DNA of 63,859 nt, counting the filler, from Chrysochromulina tobinii (lineage: Eukaryota), in assembly GCA_001275005.1 (NCBI GenBank). It is 9 parts of 9 records of this genome, joined end to end, with 100 filler letters (N's around TTAATTAATTAA, not from the genome) between each part and the next. Parts side by side here need not be neighbours in the genome. Positions count along the whole stretch, not along the records: positions 48,313 to 57,043 come from JWZX01000007.1; 8 more parts are not named here. One strand, written 5' to 3'. The notes under the pieces are model-generated. The model worked only from the letters and a program-made list of their open reading frames with translations, did not search any database and was not told the DNA's origin. The number at the start of each line of letters is the position of its first letter. The stretch's first letter is position 1. This document shows, one piece after another, positions 1 to 63,701 of the stretch. Both the position numbers and the translations under genes were made by a program.

Positions 1-61
1 CGAGGCGCTCTGATTGCCCTTGATGGCCTCTGATGACCTCTCTGATTGCCTCCCTCATCAG

Positions 62-5418: not shown

Positions 5419-8400
5419 ATGTTCGGCTTCGGCGGGCCGAGTCTCGCCGACCGTGGAGTTGCACAGCTCAAAGCCGACGAGTTGCCCGACCTCGTGAAGA
5501 ATGCGAGCGACATTTCGACCAGGTGCCTGGCGAGCCTGCTGCAAGCACAGGCAGAGCTGCTCGCGCGCGTGAACCCCGATACGATTCAGAACAGCGCGAC
5601 TCGCGCCATGCTCGCGGACTTCATCGCGCAGTCGCTTCCACTCCTTGTGGCCGAGTCGGACGGTGTGCTCGCGTCGACCGGGAACCACCTGTCAAATGCG
5701 CACCTATACCTGGAGGCTGTGCAGTACGTTTACCCTGCTGAGAGCGGCGACGCGGAGGAGGAGTCCGGTGCAACGAGCGCGGAACTTCCTGGCGGCGGCT
5801 ACCCTGAGCAGCAGAAGACGTTACGTGCAAAGTCGGCGCGTGCCAAGTCATCACGTACTACCTTCCGCCAGCCGACGCCGCAGCAGCTTGAGAACGAGGC
5901 GGTGCCGATGCAGACTGAGCCGACCGCCTCCGAGCTCGGAGACAGCGCCGAGGCACTCGCGTACGAGAGGGCGCTTGCGGCCCTGAACGCGGTCAGCGCG
6001 GCCGAGATGGACCGTTCAGAGGACGGACGTGCGCTCGGCGAGCGGCAGCTGCTTGCATTCGTAGTAGACAAGGTGGCGGGCGGCGCGCCAGCATTCAAGG
6101 CGAATAAGCTGCCCCAGATCCTCGGGTCCCTCGTCAAAGAGGAGTACATCACCGCTGCTGTGAATGCGACCAAGAAGGCTCTCGATCCGAGCCTCCGCGG
6201 CCACATTGAGGTTGGCGCCTTCGTCGATTGGTGGCCCAGCTCCAAGTTCGCCACCGCGCAGTACGAGAACGCCTGGATGAGGGAGCTCAACCTCGAGGCG
6301 ATGCGCACTCAGCTCATGTCCGAGGTGATCCAGCGTCAGGTGGAGCAGGAGCAGGCGGCGGCGGCAGCGCAGGCGGCGGCGGCGCAGGCGGCGGCGGCCA
6401 AGCAGCAGCGACTCGCCTCGCAGCCGAAGCGCGTTCAGGCGGTCCTCGTGAGGCTGCGCAAGGCGGAGGCGGCCGTGCAGGACGCGCACGCGGTCGCCCT
6501 TCGCGAAGCCCTCGTGGCAGTCGAGGAGCTTGCTGACGTCGAGCCACCCTTCTTGCAGCGGCTGTACGAGCAGCTCGAGAGCGCGTCGCCACTGATGGCA
6601 CGCGCGCGCGGCGCGCAGTTCACGCAGCTGGTCCACCATAAGGCGAGGGCGCTCCAGCTCATGAAAGAGGTCGATGCGTCCGCTCACGCCGAGCGTGAGG
6701 CTCGCGAGGCCGGCGCCGCCGCGCTCGCCGCGTATGCAGGCCGTGCGGAGGCGATGCATCGACGGCTGCACAACCGGTCGGCGGCTCAGACGGCCGAATG
6801 GCTGCGCGGACGGGTGAAGAAGACAGTAGAGGGGGGGAAGAAGCAAGAGGCGAAGCAGCTGGTTGACGCGGAGACGAAAAAGGTCAAGGGCGCACTCGAT
6901 GCGATGAGTGACTGGCTCGAGACCTACGGCAAGGCGAGGATCGATGGCCTCAAGCAGCGCTTCGACAAGCTCGCCGAGCGCGCGTTGGCGCTCGCGAGCG
7001 CGGGGCACAATGCACAGGTGGGCGGCACGACCAAGCACCAGGCGTCGCTGAGCGCGGAGCTGTCGGCGCAGCTGTCGCGCGCGCTCGACACGACGCATGA
7101 GACGGAGCATGCGGAGCTGCAGACGAAGCTCGACGAGCTTGCCGTTGGGCTCGGCCTCCTTGACGCTATCCCGACTGATGAGCACTGCCATCTCCTCTGC
7201 TCCGAGCTCTACTTCAAGCAGCGGCAGAGCTTGGCGACGCTGCATGCGGCTGAGCACGCCGCGGTGCCCCAGATGGTGCGCGTCTTCGTAGATGTACTCG
7301 GAGGGCCCACGCCTGTCGAGGACTCCGCGCTCGGCACGACGCGCGTCTCGGCGGCCGAGTTGGTAGAGGCCTCCACCTTTGCGACGATGCTGCACACGCA
7401 GCTCGGCCTTGAGCAGCGGCTCGATGCGCTGCACAGCGCGACGCGCGACACACGCCAGGCCGTCGTCTCGCTCGCAACGAGCATGCACGCGGGGGGGGAA
7501 GCTGCGAGACCGCCCCCGGAGCAGCTGGGTACGCTGTGGAAGCTTGTTCTCGAGCTCGAGCGGCAGGCGAACGCTGTGGAAGCAGCGGTTCGGGAGGCGG
7601 TGCACTCGACCTCGCAGCACATGCAAGGCTTCGAGGGGCGCAACTTGCCACGTGCGCAGGCGATGCTGGACGCGGGGAAGGCCATCGCGCGCGCCGCAAG
7701 TGCCGTCGTCCGCATCTTGCGCTGTGAACCACCGGCGCCGACGAAGGGTGGCGGGGCCCTACCAGCGATCTCCTCGGCGATCTCCTCGGAGTTTGTTGCC
7801 GGCGCAGCTGGCGCGTCGGAGGTGTTGGTGGTGCACCCCGCCGAGGTGCATCCCAACCTGCCCGGCCTCGCCGAGCGATGGAGCACCGTCGTGGTCGCGA
7901 TGCAGGCCGAGCAGCAGAAGCTCGTCGCGGCGGCCGAGGACATGGAGCAGCACTCGCTCGACATGCAGCAGCTCTTACTCGAAGTTTCAGAGCATGCCGA
8001 GGGGGTGATGGCGCGATTCCAGCTGCTCGTCGACGCGAATGCCAAGCCACTGCGCCACGCGGGGAATCTGGCGGCGCTCAAGACTCTGTGTGAAACGTAC
8101 GAGCGCGCGTCCAGCGCCCTGCGAGAGCGTGCGATGAAGGCGGTCGAGATGCCCAAGCTCTTTGCGCGGCTGTCGGGGCAGCTGCAGCAGCAGCAAGACT
8201 CGATCAACGCGTGGTGCAAGCCGCTGATCAACATGAAGCAGGAGTTCGTCGACGTATTCTCCGCAGACGACAAGCCCGGGGCCGACAAAAAGGGGGGCAA
8301 GGGCTCAGCGGAGACGACGGCCGTAGAGCATTCCTCCACCGAGGCCCCGGCAGCCGAGCCTGCTAAAGGCGCCAAAGGTGGAGGCAAGGCCGCGCCCAAG

Positions 8401-9687
8401 GGCAAAGGGGCCCCGCCGGCCCCGCCGGCCCCGCCGGCAAACGCGCCGGCCCCGCCCGCGAACGCGCCATCGCTCCCGCCGCCGCCGGTCCTCGCGCCGA
8501 ACACATCTCGACCGCTGCCGCCACCCTCTCCGGCGAAGCTGGGCGCCGGCAAGAGTGCGTCGGACAAGGGGGTGCTCGGCACGACGCTCGACACCAACCT
8601 GGGCACACGCGTGGCGCTGAACTTGATCAAGTCGCTGCTGGCGAGCGCTGAGGTGAAGGCGAGCGCCGTGCTCGGACACGACGCGATCGTCAAGCGAATG
8701 AGCACCGTGGCCGCTCTGTACGAGAAGCGTTCTCTCGAGCAGCAGACGGCGAAGGCGGAGATGGGTGCGCTCGAGCAGCTCTTTGAGCTCTCGAAACTCT
8801 CTGGCGAGGGCGGCGTCGAGCGTCAGGCGCTCGAGGACCGTGCTGAGTTGCTGCACGAGACCATCGCCTCGGCTGTCGCACTCGAGCCGCCGCCAAAGAC
8901 ACCCAAAGCCGAGAAGGTGGCCAAGCTCAGGCCGTCGGCTGACGAGACGCCGGCCAAGGGCGGAGCCAAGGGGGGCGACGCGAAAGGGGGTGCGGGTGCC
9001 AAGGGGACGCCAGGCGCTAAGACGGGCGCCAAGGAGGCCAAGGACGCAAAGGAGGCCAAAGGCGGCAAGGGCGGGGCGGCCGCCAAGAAGGGCGCCACCA
9101 AGGAGGCCGAGGCGGCCAAGGAGGCCGCGGCCAAGGAGCAGCTCAAGGCCGAGCAGCTCAAGGCCGAGACCGCGCAGAGGGTTGCGGCCGCGCAGGCGGA
9201 GCAGGAGCTCGCCGCCACGAAGATGCAAGCGGCGATGCGTGGCAAGATGACGCGTGTGCAGGTGGCCAAGGACAGGAAGGACATCGCCACCGGGGCTGCA
9301 AACAGCTCCGCGGCCGCCGCGCCTCAAAGTCCGCCCAAGGGCGCCATCAAGGGCAGCTCGCCGAGCGCCTCGCCAGAAGGAGCCAAACAGGCAAAGGGGG
9401 ACAACAAGACACCGCCCAAGGGAGCGCCGCCAGCGGCGGACGTGAAAGCGACCCCGGCTCCGCAGGCTAAGGGCAACGCCGGCAAGGGGGACGGTGCGCC
9501 CAAGGGAGCGAAGCCGAACGCCAAGGCGGCGGCAGCGACTCCGCAGCCGTTGGCCCCCCCGATGGCGCCCCCCAAAGGCGACGCCAAGGCGGCGGCAGCC
9601 GCGGGCGGCGGAGCCAAACGCTCGGACTCGCCACGAGGCAGCAGCAAGCCTCCGATCAAAGCCACGCCGATCAAGGCGGGGAGGTAA
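5419..9687 (+). CDS. 1422-aa coiled-coil protein with IQ motif and Lys/Ala/Pro-rich tail
   Basis: Long ATG-started ORF with heptad-rich Ala/Glu/Leu/Gln sequence; AATKMQAAMRGKMTR IQ motif near 9211-9255. Confidence 0.75.
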   Translation: MFGFGGPSLADRGVAQLKADELPDLVKNASDISTRCLASLLQAQAELLARVNPDTIQNSATRAMLADFIAQSLPLLVAESDGVLASTGNHLSNAHLYLEAVQYVYPAESGDAEEESGATSAELPGGGYPEQQKTLRAKSARAKSSRTTFRQPTPQQLENEAVPMQTEPTASELGDSAEALAYERALAALNAVSAAEMDRSEDGRALGERQLLAFVVDKVAGGAPAFKANKLPQILGSLVKEEYITAAVNATKKALDPSLRGHIEVGAFVDWWPSSKFATAQYENAWMRELNLEAMRTQLMSEVIQRQVEQEQAAAAAQAAAAQAAAAKQQRLASQPKRVQAVLVRLRKAEAAVQDAHAVALREALVAVEELADVEPPFLQRLYEQLESASPLMARARGAQFTQLVHHKARALQLMKEVDASAHAEREAREAGAAALAAYAGRAEAMHRRLHNRSAAQTAEWLRGRVKKTVEGGKKQEAKQLVDAETKKVKGALDAMSDWLETYGKARIDGLKQRFDKLAERALALASAGHNAQVGGTTKHQASLSAELSAQLSRALDTTHETEHAELQTKLDELAVGLGLLDAIPTDEHCHLLCSELYFKQRQSLATLHAAEHAAVPQMVRVFVDVLGGPTPVEDSALGTTRVSAAELVEASTFATMLHTQLGLEQRLDALHSATRDTRQAVVSLATSMHAGGEAARPPPEQLGTLWKLVLELERQANAVEAAVREAVHSTSQHMQGFEGRNLPRAQAMLDAGKAIARAASAVVRILRCEPPAPTKGGGALPAISSAISSEFVAGAAGASEVLVVHPAEVHPNLPGLAERWSTVVVAMQAEQQKLVAAAEDMEQHSLDMQQLLLEVSEHAEGVMARFQLLVDANAKPLRHAGNLAALKTLCETYERASSALRERAMKAVEMPKLFARLSGQLQQQQDSINAWCKPLINMKQEFVDVFSADDKPGADKKGGKGSAETTAVEHSSTEAPAAEPAKGAKGGGKAAPKGKGAPPAPPAPPANAPAPPANAPSLPPPPVLAPNTSRPLPPPSPAKLGAGKSASDKGVLGTTLDTNLGTRVALNLIKSLLASAEVKASAVLGHDAIVKRMSTVAALYEKRSLEQQTAKAEMGALEQLFELSKLSGEGGVERQALEDRAELLHETIASAVALEPPPKTPKAEKVAKLRPSADETPAKGGAKGGDAKGGAGAKGTPGAKTGAKEAKDAKEAKGGKGGAAAKKGATKEAEAAKEAAAKEQLKAEQLKAETAQRVAAAQAEQELAATKMQAAMRGKMTRVQVAKDRKDIATGAANSSAAAAPQSPPKGAIKGSSPSASPEGAKQAKGDNKTPPKGAPPAADVKATPAPQAKGNAGKGDGAPKGAKPNAKAAAATPQPLAPPMAPPKGDAKAAAAAGGGAKRSDSPRGSSKPPIKATPIKAGR

Positions 9688-15403: not shown

Positions 15404-15503
15404 NNNNNNNNNNNNNNNNNNNNNNNNNNNNNNNNNNNNNNNNNNNNTTAATTAATTAANNNNNNNNNNNNNNNNNNNNNNNNNNNNNNNNNNNNNNNNN
15501 NNN
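15404..15503. other. Artificial contig linker
   Basis: N44-TTAATTAATTAA-N44. Identical linkers at 25622-25721, 28222-28321, 31371-31470, 33497-33596, 48213-48312, 57044-57143 and 60319-60418. Confidence 0.97.
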
Positions 15504-31470: not shown

Positions 31471-33496
31471 CCATCATCGCTGCAGAGTGCTCAGCACGCT
31501 CTGCGGGCTCAGCAAGCTCAGCAAGCTCAGCAAGCTCAGCAAGCTCAGCAAGCTCAGCAAGCTCAGCAAGCTCAGCAAGCTCAGCGTGCTCAGCGTGCTC
31601 AGCAGGTTCAGCATGTTAATTTTGCTCAGCATCCTCATCATGCCCAGCGAGCTCACTGAGCACGATGAGATCATGCTGAGCACGATGAGATCATGCTGAG
31701 CACAATAAGCATGCTGAGCATGCTGAGCACGCTAAGCTTGCTGAGCACGCTGAGCACGCTGAGCACGCTGCGGCGATGTTGGCGATGATGAGCCCACTGA
31801 GCACAATGAGGATGCGCGCTGACGGCTGAGCCCGCTGAGCATGATGAGGATGCTGAGCACGATGAGAATGCTCAGCCTGCTGAGCACGCTGAGCTTGCTG
31901 AGCTTGATGAGCGGGCAGTGCTTGATGAGCTTGCTGATCCTGAGCATGCTGCAGCGATGTTGGCGATGCACGATGAGCATGCTGAGCACACTGAGCGCGA
32001 TGTCGATGAGCTTGCTGAGCACACTGAGCACGATGAGGATGCTGAGCACGATGAGCATACGATGAGCATGCTGAGCACAGTGAGCATGCTGAGCCGGCTG
32101 AGCATGCTGAGCTTGCTGAGCATGCTGAGCTTGCTGAGCCTGCAGAGCACGCTGAGCACAATGCGGCGATGTTGCCGATAATGAGCATGCTGAGCCCGCT
32201 GAGCACCATGAGGATGCTGAGCCCGCTGGGCATGATGAGGATGCTGAGCAAATTTAACATGCTGAACCTGCTAAGCACGCTGAGCTTGCTGAGCTTGCTG
32301 AGCTTGCTGAGCTTGCTGAGCTTGCTGAGCCCGCAGAGCGTGCTGAGCACTCTGCAGCGATGATGGCGATCTTGCACAATGAGCTTGCTGAGCATGCTGA
32401 GCACAATGAGCTTGCTGAGCATGATGAGCTTGCTGAACACGCTGAGCACAATGAGCTCGCTGAGCACAATGAGCCTGCTGAGCCTGCTGAGCCTGCAGAG
32501 CACGCTGAGCTTGCCGAGCCTGCAGAGCACGCTGAGCTTGCCGAGCCTGCAGAGCACGCTGAGCATGCTGCGATGCACGATGAGCATGCTGAGCACGCCG
32601 AGCAGGCTGAGCATGCAGAGCAAGATGAGGATGATGAGCACAATGAGCACAATGAGCTTGCTGAGCTTGCTGAGCTTGCTGTGCTTCCTGAGCCTGCTGA
32701 GCACGCTGCAGCGATGTTGGCGATGCCCTATGAGCACTCTGCGCGCACAATGAGCACGATGAGCTTGCTGAGCCTGCTGAGCATGATGTGGATGCTGAGC
32801 ACAATGAACACAATGAGGATGCTGAACCCGCTGAGCATTAGCTGAGCATGTTGAGCCTGCTGAGCTTGCTGAGCACGCTGAGTAAGCTGGGCCTGCAGTG
32901 CACGCTGAGCACGCTGCGGCGATGTTGGCTGATGATGAGCCGGCTGAGCACGATGAGGATGCTGAGCCCGCTGAGCACAATGAGGATGCTGAGCCTGCTG
33001 AGCTTGCTGAGCCTGCTGAGCTTGCTGAGCTTGCTGAGCTTGCTGAGCTTGCTGAGCTTGCTGAGCCTGCTGAGCACGCTGAGCACGATGCTGCATTGTT
33101 GCCGATGATGAGCATGCTGAGCACGATGAGCACGATGAGGATGCTGAGCCCGCTGGGCATGATGAGGATGCTGAGCAAAATTAACATGCTGAACCTGCTG
33201 AGCTTGCTGAGCTTGCTGAGCTTACTGAGCTTGCTGAGCTTGCTGAGCTTGCTGAGCCCGCAGAGCGTGCTGAGCACTCTGCAGCGATGATGGCGATCTT
33301 GCACAATGAGCACGCTGAGCATGCTGAGCACAATGAGCTTGCTGAGCATGATGCTGAGTACAATGAACACAATGAGGATGCTGAACCCGCTGAGCATGTT
33401 GAGCCTGCTGAGCTCGCTGAGCACGATGAGCATGCTGAGCCTGTTGAGCCTGCAGAGCACGCTGAGCTTGCCGAGCCTGCAGAGCACGCTGAGCTT
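31471..33496. repeat. 9-bp-based (GCTGAGCnn) satellite with higher-order blocks and one inverted block
   Basis: The whole contig is GCTGAGC variants. Blocks at ~32171 and ~33098 recur; 31471-31650 is the reverse complement of ~33151-33293. Confidence 0.9.
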
Positions 33497-40550: not shown

Positions 40551-43500
40551 TCAAATCGGCAGGAACGCCAAAGGACGATGGCCGCTCTCGGACGACGAAG
40601 GCCTCTTCATCGCGAGCGCTCGCGCGACCAAGGCTGCGACCGGCCCAGGCGACTTTGGCTTCTCCTTTGCTGCGGGACTCGCATTGGTATTGAGGGCGCC
40701 CAGCATTCGCCTCGGCTGCCCGGGCGTAGGTCGGGACGCCCCAGACTGCAGGTGCGGCTCAAGGTGCTTCGACGGAGTGCTCCGCTCAGGGCTCCTGCCT
40801 CCCTCAATCATTTCGGGCTCGCCTGATGCGCCCCATCGAATCTCCTCCGAATGAGATCGAATCTCCTCCGAATGAGATCGAATCTCCTCCGAATGGGCAC
40901 TGAGATCGATGGCGCTGCTGCCTGCAGAGTGCTCGTGTGCTCCACGCGCCTGGAGAGCAGTCTCGGTCCTCCCCAGCTTCTCCTGCATGCAATGCAATGA
41001 GACACACTCAGTGGATCTCGAGACGCACTTGCATGCAATGCAATCAGACGCACTCAGTGGATCTCGAGAGGCACTTGTACGCAATGCAATCAGAGGGTTT
41101 TCGAGAGGCACCTGCATCCTCGCCAGCTCATCGGCTGCCATGCGCAAATTCTCCTGTAGCCTCGCCACCTCGGCTGCATGCACCTGGGCAGCCCGGCTCG
41201 CCTCCGTCGCCAGCGTCGCGCTCACGTCGTCATTATGTAGCACGCATGCCCGCAGTGCCGCCGCCTCCTCCCTCAGCACCCCCAGCGCGCCTGCATGCTC
41301 CTCCCTAATTCTGCCGAGCGCTTTCGTATGCTCGTCGCGCAGCGCCCCAATTGCCCTCGTATGCTCTGCCTCCGCCACCTTCTGTGCCAGCCGCAGTGAC
41401 GCGAGCTCATTCAGCAAGGTCGACTCACCCGTCGCGTCCTCGAGCCGTCCTTTTTCTTGCTTCACGAGCTCGAGCTGCGCCTCGGCCGCCGCCCGAGTGA
41501 GCTTCGTCAATTGGAGCCGGAGCGAGCTCACCTCCGCCTTCGCCTTGTCAAGAGTGGCCGCCTCCGCCTCCACCGTCTCCCCGAGGCTCAAAAAGAGCTC
41601 CTCCTCGAGCTCCGCCGCCTTCGCCTCGCTCGAGCGCGCCCTCTTCTCAAGCTCCGCCACCTTGGCCTCGCTGACCCGTGCCTGCGCCTGCGCCCGCGCC
41701 TCGACCTCTGCCACCCGCGCGATCGCTGCCTCCACCTCCGCTGCCTTAGTCTCAAGTACCGCCTGCATCTCCGCCTGCATCTCCGCCCTCTTTGCCGCCA
41801 GCGCCGCCTCGTGCACGGCGCGCGCCTCCGCCTTCGCCGCGGCCAGCTTCTCACCCGCCTCCTTCATCACCGTCCGCACGGCAAAAACTGCCTCCTCCAT
41901 CGCCGCTGCCGCCTCAGCCTTGTCGAGTGCCCGAGCTCGCTGTTCCACAGCAAGCGCCTCCGCCAGCTTCTCTGCAGCCCTCGCGCGCTCCTCCGCCCGT
42001 ATCGCACCCTCTTTCTCCTGCTCCCTCACCTCATTCCTTCGCCGCTCCTCCGCGAGCACCTTCGCTACCGCCGTCTCGATCGCCGCCTCGCGGTCGTGGG
42101 CCGCTCGCTCCGCTGCCACCTCCTCCGCCCTTGTATGCTCAGCGTCGGCGAACTCAAGCGCCGCGGCAACGTCCGCCGCATGTGCTTCGGCTGTCTGCAG
42201 GGCGTCCGCCTTCGCCTTCGCCTCGACTTGCGCCGCCTTGTGCGCCGCGGCGGCCTCCATTTCCACAAGCGTGGCGGCGCGTGCGGCGCGTGCGGCCGCC
42301 GCCGCAGAGGTCGCGACCACTTCTTCTCGCAACGCCTTCGCCACCGCTCGCTCTGCCGCGACGGCCTCCTCCAATGCCGCTGCCGACCTCGCGGCCGCCG
42401 CAGTCAGGGCCGTTGCCAGCGTCGCCTCGTGTGCAGCACGTGCCTCCGCCAGCGCTGCCGCTAGCTGCTCGGCCGCCTCCGCCGCCATCTCCACCCGTAC
42501 GGCTTTGACCGCCTCCGCTAGCTGCTCGGCCGCCGCCTCTGCTGCTTTGCGCGCCACCTCTGCTGCCTGCGCCTCCCTCGCCTCCGTCTCTGCCTGTTTG
42601 ACCGCCTCCGCTGCCGCCCAGGCAGTCTCCTCCGCCTGCACCGCGCGCGTGCTCAGAGCATCGATTTGCTCCGCCATCAGCGTTCGGAACAGAGACGCTC
42701 GGCGCTCGTGATGTGCGCCCTCCTCCCTCACCGCCGCCTGCACCGCCGCCTGCACCGCCACCTCCACCCGCGCAGCCGCGCTCGCAAGCTCCCTCGCCAT
42801 TTCCTGCGCGTGCTCAGCGTCGGCATCCGCCAGCGCCGCTCGCAGCGCCGCACAGTCCACCGACGCTCGCGCGTCGAGGTCGACGAGCGCCTCGTGCAGG
42901 CAATCGTCTGGGGTCGTGAAGAGCCGATGAGGTGCGTCCGTACAAAGAAGCTGCGAGTCCCAGTGCGGCTTCAGGGGCGGCACTGCCGATCGCGGACTTG
43001 GCGGAGGGCCGATGGTGCTCACCGCCTCACCGAGCGCCGCCCCGAGCGCTTCTTGCGCACCCCGATCCACCGGCCGGTCTGGCTGCTGCAACGTTTGGTT
43101 GTGCACCCTCTGGGCCCGGGCCGCGAACAGAAGTGTGCTCAGGGTCTCGGCCTTGCATGCGGCGAGCGGGCTCACGTTTGCGACCAGCCACGTGCGAGCA
43201 CTCCCCCCCAGAGAGTCTCTCAGTAGCTGCGTGAGTTTCGAGTCGCGGTAAGGTACGTGTGGCCGCCCCGCATTGAGTGCCTGGATCATTCCCGAACGCG
43301 TTCAGAGTCAGACAGAGTCAATCGTACGCAAGTCGAGGCAATTCGAGAGGCAATCATCACGGTGCCACACCCCTCTCGCCAGATCACCTACCTGGATCAC
43401 TCCTGACAGTGCCGAGAGGCTTCGGTTGATGGAACAAGCCTCATCCAGCAGCAAGCTCTCATCCTCGGCGCAGGCCGGCATACCCAACTCCGAGCTCGAC

Positions 43501-44363
43501 TGTGAGACGCGGGCCTGCCGCTCCGAGCCGGCGAGATCCACGAGATTGAGCTGAGAGGTTCGTACCTGCAACACGAGATCAACGAGATTGAGCTGAGAGG
43601 TTCGTACCTGCAACCCGAGATCCACGAGATTGAGCTGAGAGGCACGTACCTGTAACCCGTCGCTCGCACGCGTGACGCGCTGCAGCCGCAAGATGAAGAC
43701 TGCATGCGAGCGCGAGGAGTGGTCGTTCAGCAGAGTGGACGCAACGGTTCGGCGTCGCGTCCCGAGCGCGAGCGTGCGCAGCGCCTCGGCCGCAGAGCGC
43801 AGCTGCACTTGCTTCAGGCCATCGACAAAGGTCCCGCGAGCATCAGGAGCCTCACGCAGGCGCAGTGACGCTGACGCGGGCGCGAGAAGGTCGGTGATTT
43901 GATCGTTGTGGATCTGCAGGAAGCTGCAGCTGCAGTAAAAGGTAGCACCGGCGTCCGCCGTCGAGGCCTCGGCATCAAACTCGGCTTGCTGCCGACGCGC
44001 GAGCTCGCCAAGGGCCTCCTCGAGCAGCCGTGGCAGCAAGCCACGGTCGTCCTGCTTGCCGCCCGTCATGGTGTACGTCTTTCCTGAGCCCGATTGGCCG
44101 TAGCACAAGATGGTCCCGTTGTAGCCGCCCAGGAAGGCATCGAGCGTCGGACGTCCCACCACGTCGAAGACACGCGCTTGCGAGGTGCCCTCGTCGCCGG
44201 CTTGATCAAAAACAAAGGAGCGATTGTCGAGCACGACCTCGGACCGACTATCAGTGGCACCGTCGGCTGAGGAACGAACCGAGATCGTTCGCGTACGCTC
44301 GCGAGCCCCTTTGTGGCTGCGCACCCGAACGAAGACGGACACCGGTTGGAAGGGGGCGGTCAT
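40551..44363 (-). CDS. Kinesin motor protein (kinesin-12/KIF15-like) with coiled-coil stalk; introns 43566-43649, 43281-43391, 40983-41111
   Basis: GQSGSGKT, SSRSH, LVDLAGSER, HVPYRDSKLT, ETLSTL. GT-AG intron 43281-43391 joins the two ORFs. Confidence 0.9.
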
Positions 44364-48212: not shown

Positions 48213-48314
48213 NNNNNNNNNNNNNNNNNNNNNNNNNNNNNNNNNNNNNNNNNNNNTTAATTAATTAANNNNNNNNNNNNNNNNNNNNNNNNNNNNNNNN
48301 NNNNNNNNNNNNCC

Positions 48315-50000
48315 GGCCACCTCGCCGGCAAGAGTGGCCCGGAGCTCGGGCGGCTGCTGGGTGTCGTGAGCGACTTCCCCACCGAGGCGGAGCGGCAGGC
48401 AGCGACGGAGGAGCCCCTCTACACGCAAGACGCTCAGCACGACGCCACCGCACCGCGAGCGGCCGACGCACCCACACCGCCAGCGCCCGTGTGCTGGCTC
48501 TCGACACAGCTCGTCAACGAGGACGTCCTCGAGGACGCCCTCGCGGACGCCGACGTGCCGACGCTGCGCGCGCTCAAGGGCGTGAGCCTCGCGTGGCGCG
48601 CGCGGGCGCGGCGCGTCCTGTGCGCGCGGCTGTGCGCACGCGTCGGCCTGCCCCTCACGAGCAACCTCGTCGAGGTGACCGAGCTCAACCTCTCGGACAG
48701 CCGCACCGCCGGTCGCCTCTTCGCCGACGCGGTCGACGCGTCGCGCTGGCTGCCCAACCTGGCAAAGGTGACGGGGCTGGGCGGCTTCGAGGTGGACGTG
48801 GCCGCGCTGAGGAGTGTGGCGTCTTCGGATGGATCAGAAGAAGATGAAGATGGTCCGCAACCGTATCCGATGGCAGGGGTGCGCGCATGCATCCGCGGCG
48901 AGGGCGAGGCGCCGATGGAGGTGCTGCTTGCCGCGTGCGTGCTGCGCCGTGGCGAGGCGCGCGTGCCGCCAAGCGCGTTCTTCGAGGACAGGTCGATTAC
49001 GTCGATCGCGCTGCCCGCCGGCCTCACGAGCGTCGGTGAGTTCGCCTTCTGGGGCTGCTCCTCGTTGACGTCGATCGAGCTGCCCGCGGGCCTCACAAGC
49101 CTCGGTGAGGACGCCTTCTCTGGCTGCTCCTCGATGACGTCGATCGAGCTGCCCGCCGGCCTCACGAGCCTCGCTGAGCGCGCCTTCTATGGCTGCTCCT
49201 CGTTGACGTCGATCGAGCTGCCCGCCGGCCTCACGATCCTCGGTCGTGGCGCCTTCGTCGACTGCTCCTCGTTGACGTCGATCGAGCTGCCCGCCGGCCT
49301 CTCGAGCCTCGGTGAGTGCGCCTTCGCTGGCTGCTCCTCGTTGACGTCGATCAAGCTGCCCGCCGGCCTCACGAGCCTCGGTGAGGTCGCCTTCTGTGGC
49401 TGTTCCTCAATGACGTCAATCGCGCTGCCCACCGGCCTCACGAGCATCGATGAGGACGCCTTCTATTACTGCTCCTCGTTGACGTCAATCGAGCTGCCCG
49501 CCGGCCTCACAAGCATCGGTCATGGCGCCTTCCGTGACTGCTCCTCGTTGACGTCGATCAAGCTGCCCGCCGGCCTCACGAGCCTCGGTAAGGAGGCCTT
49601 CACTGGCTGCTCCTCGATAACGTCGATCGCGCTGCCCGCCGGCCTCACGAGCATTGGTGAGGGCGCCTTCAAGGACTGCTCCTCGTTGACGTCGATCGAG
49701 CTGCCCACCGGCCTCACGAGCCTCGGTAAGGAGGCCTTCTATGGCTGCTCCTCGATGTCGTCGATTGAGCTGCCCGCTGGCCTCACGAGCCTCGGTAGGT
49801 ACGCCTTCTATCGCTGCTCCTCGATGACGTCGATCGAGCTGCCCGCTGGCCTCACGAGCCTCGGTGAGGGCGCCTTCTCTGGCTGCTCCTCGTTGACGTC
49901 GATCGCGCTGCCCGACGGCTTCGATGAAAGCATTCTCAGGTTCGCCCAAGTGCCACCCAGCGCCATCCTTCGCTTTGGACCGGCAGTTGACGTCGATTGA
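48315..50000 (+). CDS. Skp1-F-box-BspA-type LRR protein, copy A (5' truncated, 13 LRRs)
   Basis: GKSGPELGRLLGVVSDF (Skp1 tail), EDVLEDAL...LKGVSLAWR (F-box-like), 69-nt repeats at 48993-49889. Confidence 0.85.
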   Translation, partial: GHLAGKSGPELGRLLGVVSDFPTEAERQAATEEPLYTQDAQHDATAPRAADAPTPPAPVCWLSTQLVNEDVLEDALADADVPTLRALKGVSLAWRARARRVLCARLCARVGLPLTSNLVEVTELNLSDSRTAGRLFADAVDASRWLPNLAKVTGLGGFEVDVAALRSVASSDGSEEDEDGPQPYPMAGVRACIRGEGEAPMEVLLAACVLRRGEARVPPSAFFEDRSITSIALPAGLTSVGEFAFWGCSSLTSIELPAGLTSLGEDAFSGCSSMTSIELPAGLTSLAERAFYGCSSLTSIELPAGLTILGRGAFVDCSSLTSIELPAGLSSLGECAFAGCSSLTSIKLPAGLTSLGEVAFCGCSSMTSIALPTGLTSIDEDAFYYCSSLTSIELPAGLTSIGHGAFRDCSSLTSIKLPAGLTSLGKEAFTGCSSITSIALPAGLTSIGEGAFKDCSSLTSIELPTGLTSLGKEAFYGCSSMSSIELPAGLTSLGRYAFYRCSSMTSIELPAGLTSLGEGAFSGCSSLTSIALPDGFDESILRFAQVPPSAILRFGPAVDVD

Positions 50001-54049: not shown

Positions 54050-56672
54050 TCAGCTTAGGTCGTACGGGTTGGTGTGGCTGCTGCCGGCAGCGGCCGGAGC
54101 CGGCGGCTTGCTACGCCGCACACGCTCGGCGGCGAGCTTTCCTTGGCAATTCGCTCCGTAGTAGCCTCCACCGCTTTGGCCGGGCACTCTCCCATGCCGG
54201 TCTGGCCGCGCGTTCGCTTGCGTTCGGGGCAGATGGCCAGCGTCGTTGGTGGACCACGGGACGTCGTTGGGCGCGTAGGGCTTCGGCGGGAGCGAGTAGG
54301 GCACTGGTACCACGAGCGCGCCGGCGAGCTGTGAATGGGCCAGCTGTGAATGGTCCAGCTGTGAATGGGTCGCTGCACTGGTAAAGCCGGCCGCGCCGCC
54401 CAGCACGACGCCCGCGTGGGCCTCGGTGCGAGTGCTGCCGCTCGTGCTGCCGCTCGTGCTGCCGCTCACGCCGTGCAGGTCGGGTGCGCAGAGCGGCACT
54501 TGCGGCGTGGCCATGAGGAGCACACCTGTGGGGAAGGGCGAGACGCCGTGGTGAGCACTTGCATGCTGGAGCTCGTGCGGCGTGGCCAGGAGCACACCGA
54601 GCTCGTAGCTCATCAGCGGGTCATTAAGGGGTCATTAAGGGGTCATTAAGGGGTCATTAAGGGGTCATCAGGTGATTCGTGGCTCACCGAGCTCGTAGCT
54701 CTTGATGTAGAGTTGGGTCTCTTTCTTCTCAAGCTTGCCCCAAGCCGCCTGCGACAAGTTGTGCGAGGCGAGGATGGCCCAAGGCAGGGTGCGATCGGCG
54801 GCGTAGCGGCAGTAGGTCTTGATGTGAGGCACCGCGAGGGCGCGCCCGCTCGCGCCGCCATACGCGCCATCGCCGCCATCCCAGGTGCATAAGCGGCCAC
54901 GTGGCAAACCCATCTTAGGCAACTCGGCGAATCTTGCCTAAAATGGGGAGAGAGAAGGCGCCGTGGTGAGCACGTGCATGCAAGGGCAGGTCATCAGATG
55001 CAATCGGCAACTCGGCGAATCTTGCCTGCAGCCGCTCGACATTCTGTACCTCACACGGGATGCTGTTGCCCGCGTACCAGCCTTCCAGACTCTCGCCCAC
55101 CTGCGCCTGCGTCGGGAAGACGACCTCGATCGCAGACGGCGTTGGGCGCGTACCTGTGGGGAGAGGAGGGCGCCGTGGTGATCACTTGCATGCACCTCGA
55201 TCGCAGACGGCGTTGGGCGCGTACCACAAAAGGAGCGCACGAGCTCAACGAGCCATTCTGGTTTGGTGCCGGGCGACGAGAGCGATGAGAACTGCAGCAC
55301 GAGCGGCGCGCTGTGGAACTTGGCCTCGGACGGCGCCGCGTCTAGGATGGTCCGTACCTGCGTTGGACGGGCGAGTGGGGCGCATGCGATGAGAGAGGTC
55401 ATCAGTGGTCATCAGCGGTCATCAGGATGGTCCGTCCCTGCGTGAGGTCCCAGCGGCAGCATGCAATCAGCATGCACTTAGCACGCCCTCAGCATGCAAT
55501 CAGCATGCCCTCAGCACGCAATCACCGTACCTGCATGTGGCCCCAACGGCCGAGCTTCTCGCCCGTGTGCCGCCCAGGCACCGCGCCGAGGAGCCGTGCG
55601 CGGCATGCAGTGTAGTCGTAGCATCGAATCCATCTCAGATCGAGCGCCGCCCATCGAGCTTGCTCAGCCGCACTCTGCGGCTGCCACTGCGGGGGGGGAT
55701 GCATGCCGAGCTCTCGCACCTGCGGGGGAGGATGCATGCATGCATCAGGAGGATGCATGCCAAGCTCACGTGCACGCATGCATCTACCGTGAGGTGCATG
55801 CATGCATCAGGATGCCGAGCTCACGCACCTCCCGGTAGTACCCGTCGAGGTCTTCCCCAAAGGCGCCGATCGGAGCGGCCGCACTGCCCGCCGTGGCCGG
55901 CGCACGCGCCGCGCGCGGGAAGCTCTCCGTCCAAATCCCATTCGTCTTGTTCCACACGTCAGCAAAGATGAAGTTACCCGAGAGCACGGCCACTGTGAGC
56001 TCGGCTGGGCGTACGATGAATAGGGCCTTGGAGTGATGCGTGCCGAAGCGCTCGCACGGTGGCTGCAGGAACACGAATCGGCCCGGCTCGGCGGCAGCGC
56101 ACTGTGACTGCGGCGGCATGCCATCACCATGCACTACGACCACACGCGGCACGGTGCGCACCGCGGGGCACTCATGCACGACAAAGTCGAGCTGCGGGCG
56201 CAGGTGTCGATCCACAGACCGATGGTCAGCAGCAGATGAGCAGAGGAGCCAGAGGGCTGGTGATCGGGAGCCAGCGACGCACGTCGATCATGAAGTTGAC
56301 GATGTGGAGCTCCGAACATCCACACAGTGAGTCGGCCGACAGCAGGTCAGTGATCGACAGCGTCCCTTCGTTGCACCGGCGAGCGACCAATCCAGCCTCG
56401 ATCCATGCCCGGTGCAGCGTGCTGAGATGAAAGCCGAGCTTCGGGCCAGGGAGGGCAGTGCTCCCAGACATGCCGGCTGCGTCATGCATCTTGGAGCGCT
56501 TAGCTGGCGGCTCAGAAGCGGGCTGCGCATCTTCGTCAGTGGAGCCGTCGAGAGTGTCTGCGAGCCACGCCGCGCAGGCAACAAGGTCGGCGCCGTGCGT
56601 CGCCATGGCTGAGCGCACGCGTTCGGCCGGGAAGCCCATCGCAAGCAAGGACGCCTCAGTCTCTGCTTCCAT
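54050..56672 (-). CDS. TDP1: UBA + tyrosyl-DNA phosphodiesterase 1; exons 56672-56283, 56191-55829, 55719-55531, 55357-55225, 55153-55026, 54937-54688, 54525-54050
   Basis: The spliced product reads in frame with [46 protein letters not shown] and PVPY.LPP.PY. N-terminal LLAMGF...AAWL is UBA-like. Confidence 0.92.
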
Positions 56673-61811: not shown

Positions 61812-63701
61812 TTGAAGCGACGTCGGGTCGGCGGCGGCGGAGACAGCGGCGACGGCGACGTCAACGGCGGCGACGGCGACGACGGCGTTGTGAGGGCGCG
61901 AAGCGCCGAGGGCGAGGAGGTTGTGTGGTCCCGTTCGGCCGCGGCGCGATCGGCGGCGCTCGCCAACTGGGTGAGCGACACGGGCGGCGCCGAGGGGGCG
62001 TTCGCCACTCTGGTGCCTGCGGCTGCGCTCCGCACGCTCTCGCGCGTCGCCGAGGGCGGTGCGGAGGATGGCGGGGCGCTAGAAGGGTGCTCGCTCGCGC
62101 AGCTCGCGCAGCTTTTGCATGGCGCGCACTTTCTCGACGTGGACGTCGAGCTTCTCCGCCTCCTCTCGCGTTCCCTGTGCACCGGCCACCTCGCCGGCAA
62201 GAGTGGCCCGGAGCTCGGGCGGCTGCTGGGTGTCGTGAGCGACTTCCCCACAGAGGCGGAGCGGCAGGCGGCGGCGGAGGAGCCGATTTACACGCAAGAC
62301 GCTCAGCACGACGCCACTGCACCGCGAGCGGCCAACGCACCCACACCGCCAGCCACCGTGTGCTGGTTCTCGGCGCAGCTCGTCAACGAGGACGCCCTCG
62401 AGGACGCCCTCGCGGACGCCGATGTGCCGACGCTGTGCGCGCTCAAGGGCGTGAGCCTCGCGTGGCGCGCGCGGGCGCGGCGCGTCCTGTGCGCGCGGCT
62501 GTGCGCACGCGTCGGCCTGCCGCTCACGAGCAACCTCGTCGAGGTGACCGAGCTCGACCTCTCGGGCAGCCGCGCCGCCGGTCGTCTCATCGCCGACGCG
62601 GCCGACGCATCGCGCGGGCTGCCCAGCCTGGCAAAGGTGACGGGGTTGGGCGGCTTCGAGGTGGACGTGGCCGCGTTGAGGATTGTGGCGTCTTCGGGTG
62701 ACTACTCGTACCCGATGGCGGGAGTGCGCGCGTGCATCCGCGGCGAGGGCGAGGCGCCGATGGAGGTGCTGCTCGCCGCATGCGCGCTGCGCCACGGCGA
62801 GGCGCGCGTGCCGGCGCACGCGTTCCGCGGGGACACGTCGATGACATCGATCGCGCTGCCCGCCGGCCTCACGAGCATCGGTGAGGGCGCCTTCTATGGC
62901 TGCTCCTCAATGACGTCGATCGCGCTGCCCGCCGGCCTCATGAGCATCGCTGAGTTCGCCTTCTCTGGCTGCTCCTCGTTGACATCGATCGAGCTGTCCG
63001 CTGGCCTCACGAGCATCGGTGATAATGCCTTCGATGGCTGCTCCTCGTTGACATCGATCGAGCTGCCCGCCGGCCTCACGAGCATCGGTAGGAGCACCTT
63101 TTACAACTGCTCCTCGATGACGTCGATTGCGCTGCCCGCCGGCCTCACGAGCTTAGGTGAGGCGGCCTTCTGGGGCTGCTCCTTGATGACGTCGATCGAG
63201 CTGCCTGCAGGCCTAACGAGCCTCGGTGGGTACGCCTTCTATGGCTGCTCCGCGATGACGTCGATCGAGCTGCCTGCAGGCCTCACGAGCATCGGTGGGT
63301 GCGCCTTCTGGGGCTGCTCCTGGATGACGTCGATCGCGCTGCCCGCCGGCCTCACAAGCATCGGTTGGAAGGCCTTCTCAGGCTGCTCCTCGATGACGTC
63401 GATCGCGCTGCCCGCCAGCCTCACGAGCATTGGTGGCGCTGCCTTCAATGGCTGCTCCTCGTTGACGTCGATCGCGCTGCCCGCCGGCCTCACGAGCATC
63501 GGTGGGTGCGCCTTTTACAACTGCTCCTCATTGGCGTCGATCAAGCTGCCCGCCGGCCTCACGAGCCTCGGTGATGACGCCTTCAAGGGCTGCTCCTCGT
63601 TGACGTCGATCGAGCTGCCTGCGAGCTTCGATGACAGCACTCTGAGGTCCGCCGGAGTGCCTCCCAGCGCCATCCTTCGCTTTGACTTCGCTTTGCACTG
63701 A
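61812..63701 (+). CDS. Skp1-F-box-BspA-type LRR protein, copy B (11 LRRs; start codon unclear)
   Basis: LAQLLHGAHFLDV..LL...AGKSGPELGRLLGVVSDFPTEAE (Skp1), F-box-like segment, 69-nt repeats at 62838-63596. Confidence 0.85.
   Translation: MKRRRVGGGGDSGDGDVNGGDGDDGVVRARSAEGEEVVWSRSAAARSAALANWVSDTGGAEGAFATLVPAAALRTLSRVAEGGAEDGGALEGCSLAQLAQLLHGAHFLDVDVELLRLLSRSLCTGHLAGKSGPELGRLLGVVSDFPTEAERQAAAEEPIYTQDAQHDATAPRAANAPTPPATVCWFSAQLVNEDALEDALADADVPTLCALKGVSLAWRARARRVLCARLCARVGLPLTSNLVEVTELDLSGSRAAGRLIADAADASRGLPSLAKVTGLGGFEVDVAALRIVASSGDYSYPMAGVRACIRGEGEAPMEVLLAACALRHGEARVPAHAFRGDTSMTSIALPAGLTSIGEGAFYGCSSMTSIALPAGLMSIAEFAFSGCSSLTSIELSAGLTSIGDNAFDGCSSLTSIELPAGLTSIGRSTFYNCSSMTSIALPAGLTSLGEAAFWGCSLMTSIELPAGLTSLGGYAFYGCSAMTSIELPAGLTSIGGCAFWGCSWMTSIALPAGLTSIGWKAFSGCSSMTSIALPASLTSIGGAAFNGCSSLTSIALPAGLTSIGGCAFYNCSSLASIKLPAGLTSLGDDAFKGCSSLTSIELPASFDDSTLRSAGVPPSAILRFDFALH

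What the first reader, a model, noticed from the sequence alone, without database searches (positions are those of the whole stretch)
54526..55530. Two TDP1 introns contain an internal copy of the spliced exon-exon junction
Intron 54687-54526 contains GAGCTACGAGCTCG|GTGTGCTCCT---GGCCACGCCGCA, i.e. upstream exon end joined to downstream exon start, between two fillers. Intron 55530-55358 contains a decayed GCCGCTGGGACCTCACGCAG|GGACGGACCATCCT, compared with the true junction GCCGTTGGGGCCACATGCAG|GTACGGACCATCCT. Inference: either two successive insertions hit the same site (one of each class), or a copy of the pre-insertion or mRNA sequence was used as template. Either way the intron preserves the intronless ancestral state.
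Basis: partly seen in the sequence, partly recalled or inferred. Interest (0 to 1): 0.7.

Follow-up and report, generated by a model that had tools for sequence, protein, structure and literature searches.

The report
Introns hit twice, junction copy inside
Two introns of a DNA-repair gene in a haptophyte alga each hold a copy of the joined exon ends in their middle and are removed whole from the RNA; they likely arose when the same spot was duplicated and padded twice, and about one in ten related introns shows the same layout.

Summary
Confirmed. Both internal junction copies are far above chance (0 of 2000 shuffles). RNA contigs remove introns 55530-55358 and 54687-54526 whole, each in two runs, so the copies are not exons. 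The layout is recurrent: of 151 related introns that start with a downstream-exon copy, 16 also carry an upstream-exon copy and a second filler (null 0.7). Each half has the length of a single intron. Eleven of 16 lack AG at the junction, so the 3' half likely came first and a second duplication plus filler was added at its donor. An mRNA template is disfavoured, and recursive splicing at the inner junction is not possible in these two (no AG in one, no GT in the other). The copy in 54687-54526 reads PHE like an intronless sister lineage, where the exon now reads PQV, so it keeps older sequence. No half-only allele was found. The scan noted the single-insertion class earlier in this genome (e1-2577349); the double-hit class and its order are added here. 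Closest published case: Daphnia 'staggered-then-staggered' new introns. New variant of a known kind.

The parts
54050..56672 (-). TDP1 (tyrosyl-DNA phosphodiesterase 1) gene with N-terminal UBA-like region; exons 56672-56283, 56191-55829, 55719-55531, 55357-55225, 55153-55026, 54937-54688, 54525-54050
   Evidence: 642-codon frame; Pfam PF06087; homologs at 68-79% over exon 6, one named Prymnesium parvum
54526..54687 (-). Intron 6, composite, 162 bases, phase 1
   Evidence: skipped whole in RNA contig X14; X12 loose end fits the exon
54598..54687 (-). Intron 6 outer (5') half, 90 bases: new GT donor, 10-base repeat filler, then a perfect 14-base copy of the upstream exon end (54611-54598), which ends in CG, not AG
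54526..54597 (-). Intron 6 inner (3') half, 72 bases, in frame and stop-free: copy of the downstream exon start (54597-about 54571) plus the M2 module (54566-54544) and pyrimidine tail with the acceptor
   Evidence: read-through proteins P0182, P0183
55358..55530 (-). Intron 3, composite, 173 bases, phase 0
   Evidence: skipped whole in RNA contigs of X12 and X13 (table 8)
55438..55530 (-). Intron 3 5' half, 93 bases: GT start repeating 6 bases of the downstream exon, repeat filler, 20-base copy of the upstream exon end (55457-55438, 4 mismatches, ends in CAG)
55358..55437 (-). Intron 3 3' half, 80 bases: 14-base copy of the downstream exon start (55437-55424) whose GT has become GG, repeat filler, acceptor
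55154..55224 (-). Intron 4, 71 bases: perfect 30-base copy of the downstream exon plus M2 module; absent from 5 read-through proteins of other assemblies
   Evidence: spliced in X11, retained in one X12 contig
54938..55025 (-). Intron 5, 88 bases, GC donor: 20-base copy of the downstream exon plus filler and M2; four end types among other assemblies
55720..55828 (-). Intron 2, 109 bases, built of several partial copies of the downstream exon
56192..56282 (-). Intron 1, 91 bases, no flanking copy (best local score 14)

Best explanation
The two introns hold a copy of the spliced junction between two fillers and are spliced out whole; each likely arose from two successive duplication-plus-filler events at one site, probably by repair of a staggered break. 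Shown: single introns of both kinds are common in this organism, one kind starting with an 8-50-base copy of the downstream exon and ending in a shared acceptor module, the other starting with GT and a 10-base repeat array and ending in a copy of the upstream exon. Inferred for intron 6: the first kind formed first, because the upstream exon ends in CG and the outer half alone has no acceptor. A second event then duplicated the exon end at that intron's donor and put in an array with a new GT, so the two copies meet and rebuild the junction inside the intron. For intron 3 the order is open, and the inner GT later became GG. Inferred, least certain: the fillers are copied from existing introns by microhomology-guided template switching during end joining, and selection keeps events that splice. 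The internal copy has no function; it is a by-product and a fossil.
For: RNA contigs splice both whole. 151 of 203 M2-ended acceptors have a downstream-exon copy (null 1-5); 16 of 151 are composites (null mean 0.73 over 30 shuffles); 6 of 39 for a second acceptor module. Inner halves match single-intron lengths (KS p 0.66), outer halves 64-162 bases (KS p 0.14). 11 of 16 lack AG at the true junction, close to simple 3'-type introns (49 of 114 have AG). The outer start repeats the inner copy over 9-25 bases in 8 of 16, running into its filler in L067; diagnostic bases side with the inner copy in 6 loci. Outer donor scores higher than the inner in 10, equal in 5, lower in 1. Empty versus filled site with a perfect 33-base duplication: L011 versus L073. 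An intronless sister form exists at the intron 6 site (P0185, P0219). Filler depth in a DNA run is 5,000-42,000 against about 50. Duplication length is variable and no terminal inverted repeat was evident in the printed sites. Neighbouring modules share variants more often (30 of 103 pairs) than distant ones (742 of 5198) (pairs are not independent).
Against: No allele with only one half was seen: 19 of 20 read-through proteins carry the composite and 1 is uninformative; all 8 that reach intron 6 from upstream enter the outer half. In intron 6 itself the outer start shares only 3 bases with the inner copy, so the boundary-duplication sign is absent there. Diagnostic bases can also reflect later change in the exon, as happened at intron 6; 1 locus is mixed, 2 side with the exon at base 1, and 7 have no diagnostic base. 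The strong conservation of the 23-base module (99 of 203 exact, though loci were fetched by the exact motif) fits a dedicated mobile element as well as repair. No enzyme was identified. Splice sites in the fetched loci are inferred from structure, not RNA. Intron 5 ends vary on a shared core, so some exon copies may be added after insertion and need not be insertion footprints.
Confidence: 0.62

Rival explanations
1. Same two steps, but each is the insertion of a true mobile element (an introner) by a transposon enzyme that makes long, variable target-site duplications, such as a non-LTR reverse transcriptase or an HUH transposase.
For: A conserved acceptor module with a fixed 3' end and variable 5' extent; high copy depth; empty and filled alleles. 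Introners are reported in a Chrysochromulina MAG and from non-LTR elements; Replitron-1 makes variable duplications.
Against: Reported introner duplications in the passages read are 3-8 bases and fixed per family, not 8-50. Two mirror-image classes, array fillers that differ between introns, modules cut at both ends and whole-intron tandem copies are easier to get from local copying. No autonomous element was sought or found.
Confidence: 0.2
2. One event: a break inside an existing intron was patched with a junction-spanning piece copied from spliced mRNA, cDNA or an intronless allele.
For: Full elements with array plus M2 and no exon copy exist (52 of 203 have no downstream copy; L026 versus L056), so the two fillers could be halves of one element. 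Intron 5 shows exon copies gained or lost at the ends of one core. In intron 6 the outer start does not repeat the inner copy.
Against: Each half is a full intron length, so the two fillers add up to more than one element. The outer start repeats the inner copy in 8 of 16 and runs into filler in L067. No copy skipped a downstream intron (0 of 74 tested; low power, few exons are short enough).
Confidence: 0.08
3. Two alleles gained different introns at the same site in parallel, and unequal crossing-over between the duplicated exon pieces joined them in tandem.
For: Explains unit-length halves. A sister lineage appears to carry its own polymorphic intron at or within 2 bases of the intron 6 site (P0207, P0212 versus P0185, protein level only). 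Intron 5 shows all four end combinations. Parallel gains are common in Daphnia. Possible for intron 3, whose junction is AG/GT.
Against: In 11 of 16 composites, intron 6 included, the outer half has no AG and could not have been a viable intron alone.
Confidence: 0.07
4. The inner junction is functional: a recursive splice site or a zero-length exon between twin introns.
For: 5 of 16 composites keep an intact inner AG/GT or AG/GC with two unit-length halves; tandem twins of one class also occur.
Against: Not for the two TDP1 introns: the inner junction of intron 6 lacks AG and that of intron 3 lacks GT, and keeping the outer half of intron 6, or either half of intron 3, gives an early stop (codons 490, 316, 325). 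RNA contigs show only whole removal.
Confidence: 0.03

Closest known systems
Daphnia pulex neointrons from staggered double-strand-break repair, category 'staggered-then-staggered' (PMC4202315; section 19 and passages read)
   Same: Direct repeats at intron ends, a second staggered event in or beside a new intron, parallel gains at one site, presence/absence variation.
   Different: Daphnia repeats are 4-17 bases and parallel inserts are unrelated to each other; here duplications are 8-50 bases, fillers come from shared genome-wide splice-signal modules, and the second hit rebuilds the exon junction inside the intron. The section read does not describe an internal junction copy.
Introners of Chrysochromulina sp., Symbiodinium, Polarella and Aureococcus (bioRxiv 10.1101/2022.06.06.494994 passages; bioRxiv 10.1101/2020.10.14.339549 parts 1-2 of 4; PMC12130899 passages)
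   Same: [quoted passage not shown]
   Different: Duplications there are 3-8 bases and fixed per class, often with inverted repeats; here they are long and variable, the element has no fixed 5' end, and stacked insertions at one site are common.
Intron gain by tandem genomic duplication of an AGGT-containing exon segment (PMC3443670 passages)
   Same: Intron 3's 5' half is a duplication of a 26-base AG/GT-containing segment; exon copies supply splice sites.
   Different: A foreign filler lies between the copies, and intron 6's site has no AG.
Fungal stwintrons and recursive splicing (search listing and abstracts only; recursive-splicing rule recalled)
   Same: Two intron-sized units at one gene position.
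   Different: Here the inner sites of both TDP1 introns are dead and the RNA shows one-step removal; no consecutive splicing is needed.

Membership tests
Spliceosomal intron | Removed from RNA at GT..AG ends, restoring the reading frame | tested here: met
Introner (transposon-derived intron family) | Many similar copies at unrelated gene positions | tested here: met
   203 distinct M2-ended and 93 M3-ended sites in 730 kb chosen by the M2 motif; filler depth 100-800 times single copy
Introner (transposon-derived intron family) | End-to-end similarity of the whole intron between copies | tested here: not met
   Only a 40-55-base 3' module or a repeat array is shared; a third of each intron is local exon copy
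DNA-transposon (MITE-type) introner | Short target-site duplication of fixed length | tested here: not met
   Copy lengths 8-50 bases, mean 25, SD 9
DNA-transposon (MITE-type) introner | Terminal inverted repeats | tested here: inconclusive
   None evident in the sites printed; no dedicated search run
Introner (transposon-derived intron family) | Autonomous partner or mobilising enzyme | not testable with these tools
   No whole genome held
Staggered-break-repair neointron (Daphnia type) | Direct repeat of target sequence flanking inserted DNA, with an empty allele | tested here: met
   L011 versus L073, 33-base duplication plus 48 bases; intron 4 absent in 5 read-throughs; loss between repeats cannot be excluded
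Staggered-break-repair neointron (Daphnia type) | Origin by break repair shown directly | not testable with these tools
   Inferred from footprints only
Recursive splice site / twin intron | Inner AG followed directly by a usable GT | tested here: not met
   Intron 6 inner junction CG/GT, intron 3 inner junction AG/GG; met in 5 of 16 other composites
mRNA-templated insertion | Copied sequence skips neighbouring introns and holds no intron sequence | tested here: inconclusive
   0 of 74 copies skip a downstream intron (low power); many second copies include intron sequence

The most novel reading that the evidence does not exclude
This alga runs an intron factory without a transposase: break repair duplicates 10-50 bases of exon and pastes in splice-signal modules copied from neighbouring introns, so introns seed more introns along the same gene, hit the same sites again, rewrite their own ends from the adjacent exons, and in about a third of double hits leave twin introns around a zero-length exon that may be spliced in two steps.
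Probability: 0.25. Interest if true: 0.8.

Novelty: new variant of a known kind. Interest (0 to 1): 0.5.

Why it matters
How new introns arise is still argued mostly from a few dozen events. Here the footprint is long enough to read the order of events, it recurs in roughly a tenth of one intron family, and some sites are still variable between assemblies in a culturable alga, so the repair-versus-transposon question could be tested directly. The internal copies also record exon sequence from the time of insertion, which dates introns against later protein change. In practice these exon copies mislead gene prediction and can hide such families from introner screens that ask for whole-intron similarity. 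The two TDP1 introns alone are examples of the class, not a special feature of this gene.

Tried and rejected
One search used the wrong reading frame and is void. The motif scan of genome contigs found nothing; viral contigs gave one contig ending in such an intron. DNA of the sister lineage could not be obtained (searches found no relative), so all sister and allele statements rest on read-through proteins. In one search the joint table was crowded by repeated fillers; only table 8 was used. Two of 18 composite candidates (L012, L046 at 120) were dropped as tandem twins of one class. One search's general scan holds false positives (antisense and coding repeats; 268 of 503 have no GT..AG frame) and was used only to see classes. 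No excess of mismatches at donor positions of the copies. Mismatches by codon position 19/25/34, p 0.11: no clear general sign that exons rather than copies changed. The negative link between copy length and filler length (rho -0.68) may be partly a boundary artefact. An early idea that a short piece before M2 in intron 6 was a second copy of the upstream exon was dropped: it continues the older downstream exon. A hotspot for second hits was not shown; a rough estimate suggests that about 10% is reachable without one. No structure or complex prediction was relevant. Literature: 9 searches found no paper on long-duplication or junction-copy introns in haptophytes; the library lacks most subscription journals, and introner supplementary tables were not seen and may list these families.

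Full report
Setting. The window is a string of short contigs joined by N-padded linkers; no whole genome is held. The gene at 56672-54050 (minus strand) is TDP1: seven exons give 642 codons without a stop, PF06087 hits 3 of 6 exon translations scanned, and close homologs include one named Prymnesium parvum. The organism is therefore a haptophyte; no call named the genus.

Observation. Both internal copies are there. Intron 6 (54687-54526) aligns to its own spliced junction with 36 matches and a 3-base gap, intron 3 (55530-55358) with 29 of 34. None of 2000 dinucleotide shuffles comes near (maximum 26-27 against 63 and 43). Depth is 2-5 and these are contigs, so rare isoforms are not excluded.

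Anatomy. Each intron splits at the inner junction into two intron-sized halves: 90 + 72 bases (intron 6) and 93 + 80 (intron 3). The 5' half is GT, an array of 10-base repeats, then a copy of the upstream exon end. The 3' half is a copy of the downstream exon start, a filler and the acceptor. Introns 2, 4 and 5 of the same gene also begin with downstream-exon copies, and the fillers have depth 5,000-42,000 in a DNA run against about 50 for exons, so they are genome-wide repeats.

It is a class. Of 203 distinct M2-ended acceptors, 151 have an 8-50-base copy of the downstream exon (null 1-5). Eighteen of the 151 passed the composite test (null mean 0.73); two were dropped as same-class twins, leaving 16, intron 6 included. 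A second acceptor module gave 6 composites among 39 such introns, one with a doubtful outer donor. Single introns of the mirror class (GT, array, upstream copy ending in AG; 41 candidates, some of them twins or composite halves) and same-class twins also occur. Array fillers lie on the sense strand 525 times against 19. Splice sites in these loci are inferred from structure; 102 of 114 simple cases leave a stop-free frame over 120 spliced bases, weak support in GC-rich DNA.

Order of events. Inner halves have the lengths of single introns (KS p 0.66) and no outer half is under 64 bases. Eleven of 16 composites lack AG at the true junction, so their outer half could never have been an intron alone; this includes intron 6. 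In 8 of 16 the outer start repeats 9-25 bases of the inner copy, and in L067 it runs on into the inner filler, which shows that the second event copied DNA that already held the first intron. Diagnostic bases side with the inner copy in 6 loci, are mixed in 1, side with the exon at base 1 in 2, and are absent in 7; later change in the exon could give the same pattern. The outer donor scores better than the inner in 10, equal in 5, worse in 1. Intron 6 itself shares only 3 bases between outer and inner start, so its order rests on the missing AG.

Function of the inner junction. None is likely. In intron 6 it has no AG, in intron 3 no GT. Keeping the outer half of intron 6 or either half of intron 3 stops the frame early. 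The inner half of intron 6 alone is 72 bases, in frame and stop-free, so the second event added both a stop and a slightly better donor; whether that was selected is untested. Five of the 16 composites keep an intact inner junction and could be spliced in two steps.

Ancestral state. A sister lineage (94% identical over exon 6) reads straight across the intron 5 and 6 positions on contigs up to 18 kb (P0185, P0219): GVLLLASPHE. The window's exon reads [10 protein letters not shown] and the internal copy GVLLATPHE (P0182). The intron 3 copy has instead decayed at the conserved W-G-H motif. Other sister proteins break off four residues past this site into array-like sequence (P0207, P0212) with a downstream frame starting at the same residues (P0208), which suggests an independent, polymorphic intron at or beside the same site; this rests on protein only.

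Half-only alleles. None found: 19 of 20 cluster members carry the composite, one is uninformative, and all 8 proteins that reach intron 6 from upstream enter the outer half. The process is nonetheless recent. Intron 4 is missing from 5 read-throughs that hold the tail of intron 3 and intron 5 (partly spliced transcripts or assembly collapse are not fully excluded). L073 has a 33-base perfect duplication plus 48 filler bases where the 98%-identical L011 has none, and L022 has two tandem copies of an intron that L048 has once. Intron 5 shows four end types on one core among 14 informative read-throughs (downstream copy only 6, upstream copy only 4, neither 1, both 3), so exon copies can also come or go after an intron exists.

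Mechanism. I commit to two successive duplication-plus-filler events (about 0.85 for this part), most likely by fill-in of a staggered break with filler copied from existing introns (0.62 overall). Variable long duplications, mirror-image classes, truncated modules and variant sharing between neighbouring introns (30 of 103 pairs against 742 of 5198, non-independent pairs) point to local repair copying. A conserved module with a fixed 3' end keeps a true mobile element in play. No enzyme was identified.

Known and new. Daphnia neointrons include a 'staggered-then-staggered' category and parallel gains (PMC4202315, section 19 and passages). Introners take one splice site from a 3-8-base duplication, including in a Chrysochromulina MAG (passages; parts 1-2 of the dinoflagellate preprint; passages of PMC12130899 and PMC11282704). 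Tandem duplication of AGGT is reviewed in PMC3443670 (passages). Replitron-1 makes variable duplications (passages). A freshwater haptophyte genome paper mentions introns once, without this feature (PMC4580454, passages). Nine searches found no account of junction-copy introns or of long-duplication introns in haptophytes; supplements of the introner surveys were not seen. The scan had already noted the single-insertion class elsewhere in this genome (e1-2577349). Verdict: real, RNA-confirmed, a recurrent by-product of an active intron-making process; a new variant of a known kind, interest 0.5.

Noticed in passing
window 54938-55025 (intron 5); proteins P0001, P0151-P0163: One intron core with four end types across assemblies: with or without a downstream-exon copy at the 5' end and an upstream-exon copy at the 3' end. 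Suggests intron ends are rewritten from adjacent exons, or recombination between parallel insertions.
   Followed up: partly
window 55154-55224 (intron 4): Perfect 30-base duplication plus M2; absent from 5 read-through proteins, and retained in one RNA contig that has intron 3 spliced. Likely a very young, polymorphic intron.
   Followed up: partly
window 54494-54501 (exon 7 start): The exon change from H-E to Q-V creates an 8-base match to the core of the M2 module about 60 bases upstream; the exon may have been overwritten from its own intron, or this is chance.
   Followed up: no
window 55720-55828 (intron 2); P0227: A relative's read-through shows a plain downstream-copy plus M2 intron here; the window's version has lost the module and uses a repeated piece of exon copy as acceptor.
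   Followed up: partly
proteins P0207, P0212, P0208 versus P0185: Sister lineage appears polymorphic for a different intron at or beside the intron 6 site (parallel gain), and its frame begins just before VQNV, hinting at an intron where the window has none.
   Followed up: partly
window 1-61, 1959-2045, 2182-2275, 43265-43390, 40780-41115, 43530-43650: Further introns or intron-like stretches with exon copies and repeat fillers, while long genes such as 5419-9687 have none; module sites are clumped in the fetched loci (variance 3.5, mean 1.0 per 2 kb; biased sample).
   Followed up: partly
L012 7254-7373; L022 1497-1690; L002; L056; L068: Tandem twin introns with no exon between them; L022 has two copies where L048 has one.
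   Followed up: partly
L001 2740-3060: A contig of the viral collection ends in a haptophyte-type intron with the M2 module; likely a chimeric join, not a viral intron.
   Followed up: no
window 31471-33496: A 2-kb low-complexity array of short repeats with a large inverted arrangement, filling a whole contig.
   Followed up: no
window 48313-50000 and 61848-63680: Two paralogous genes with tandem 69-base leucine-rich-like repeats, with further copies in L059.
   Followed up: no
window 15404-15503 and seven similar blocks: N44 + 12-base linker + N44 marks joins between unrelated contigs; neighbours across these are not linked.
   Followed up: yes
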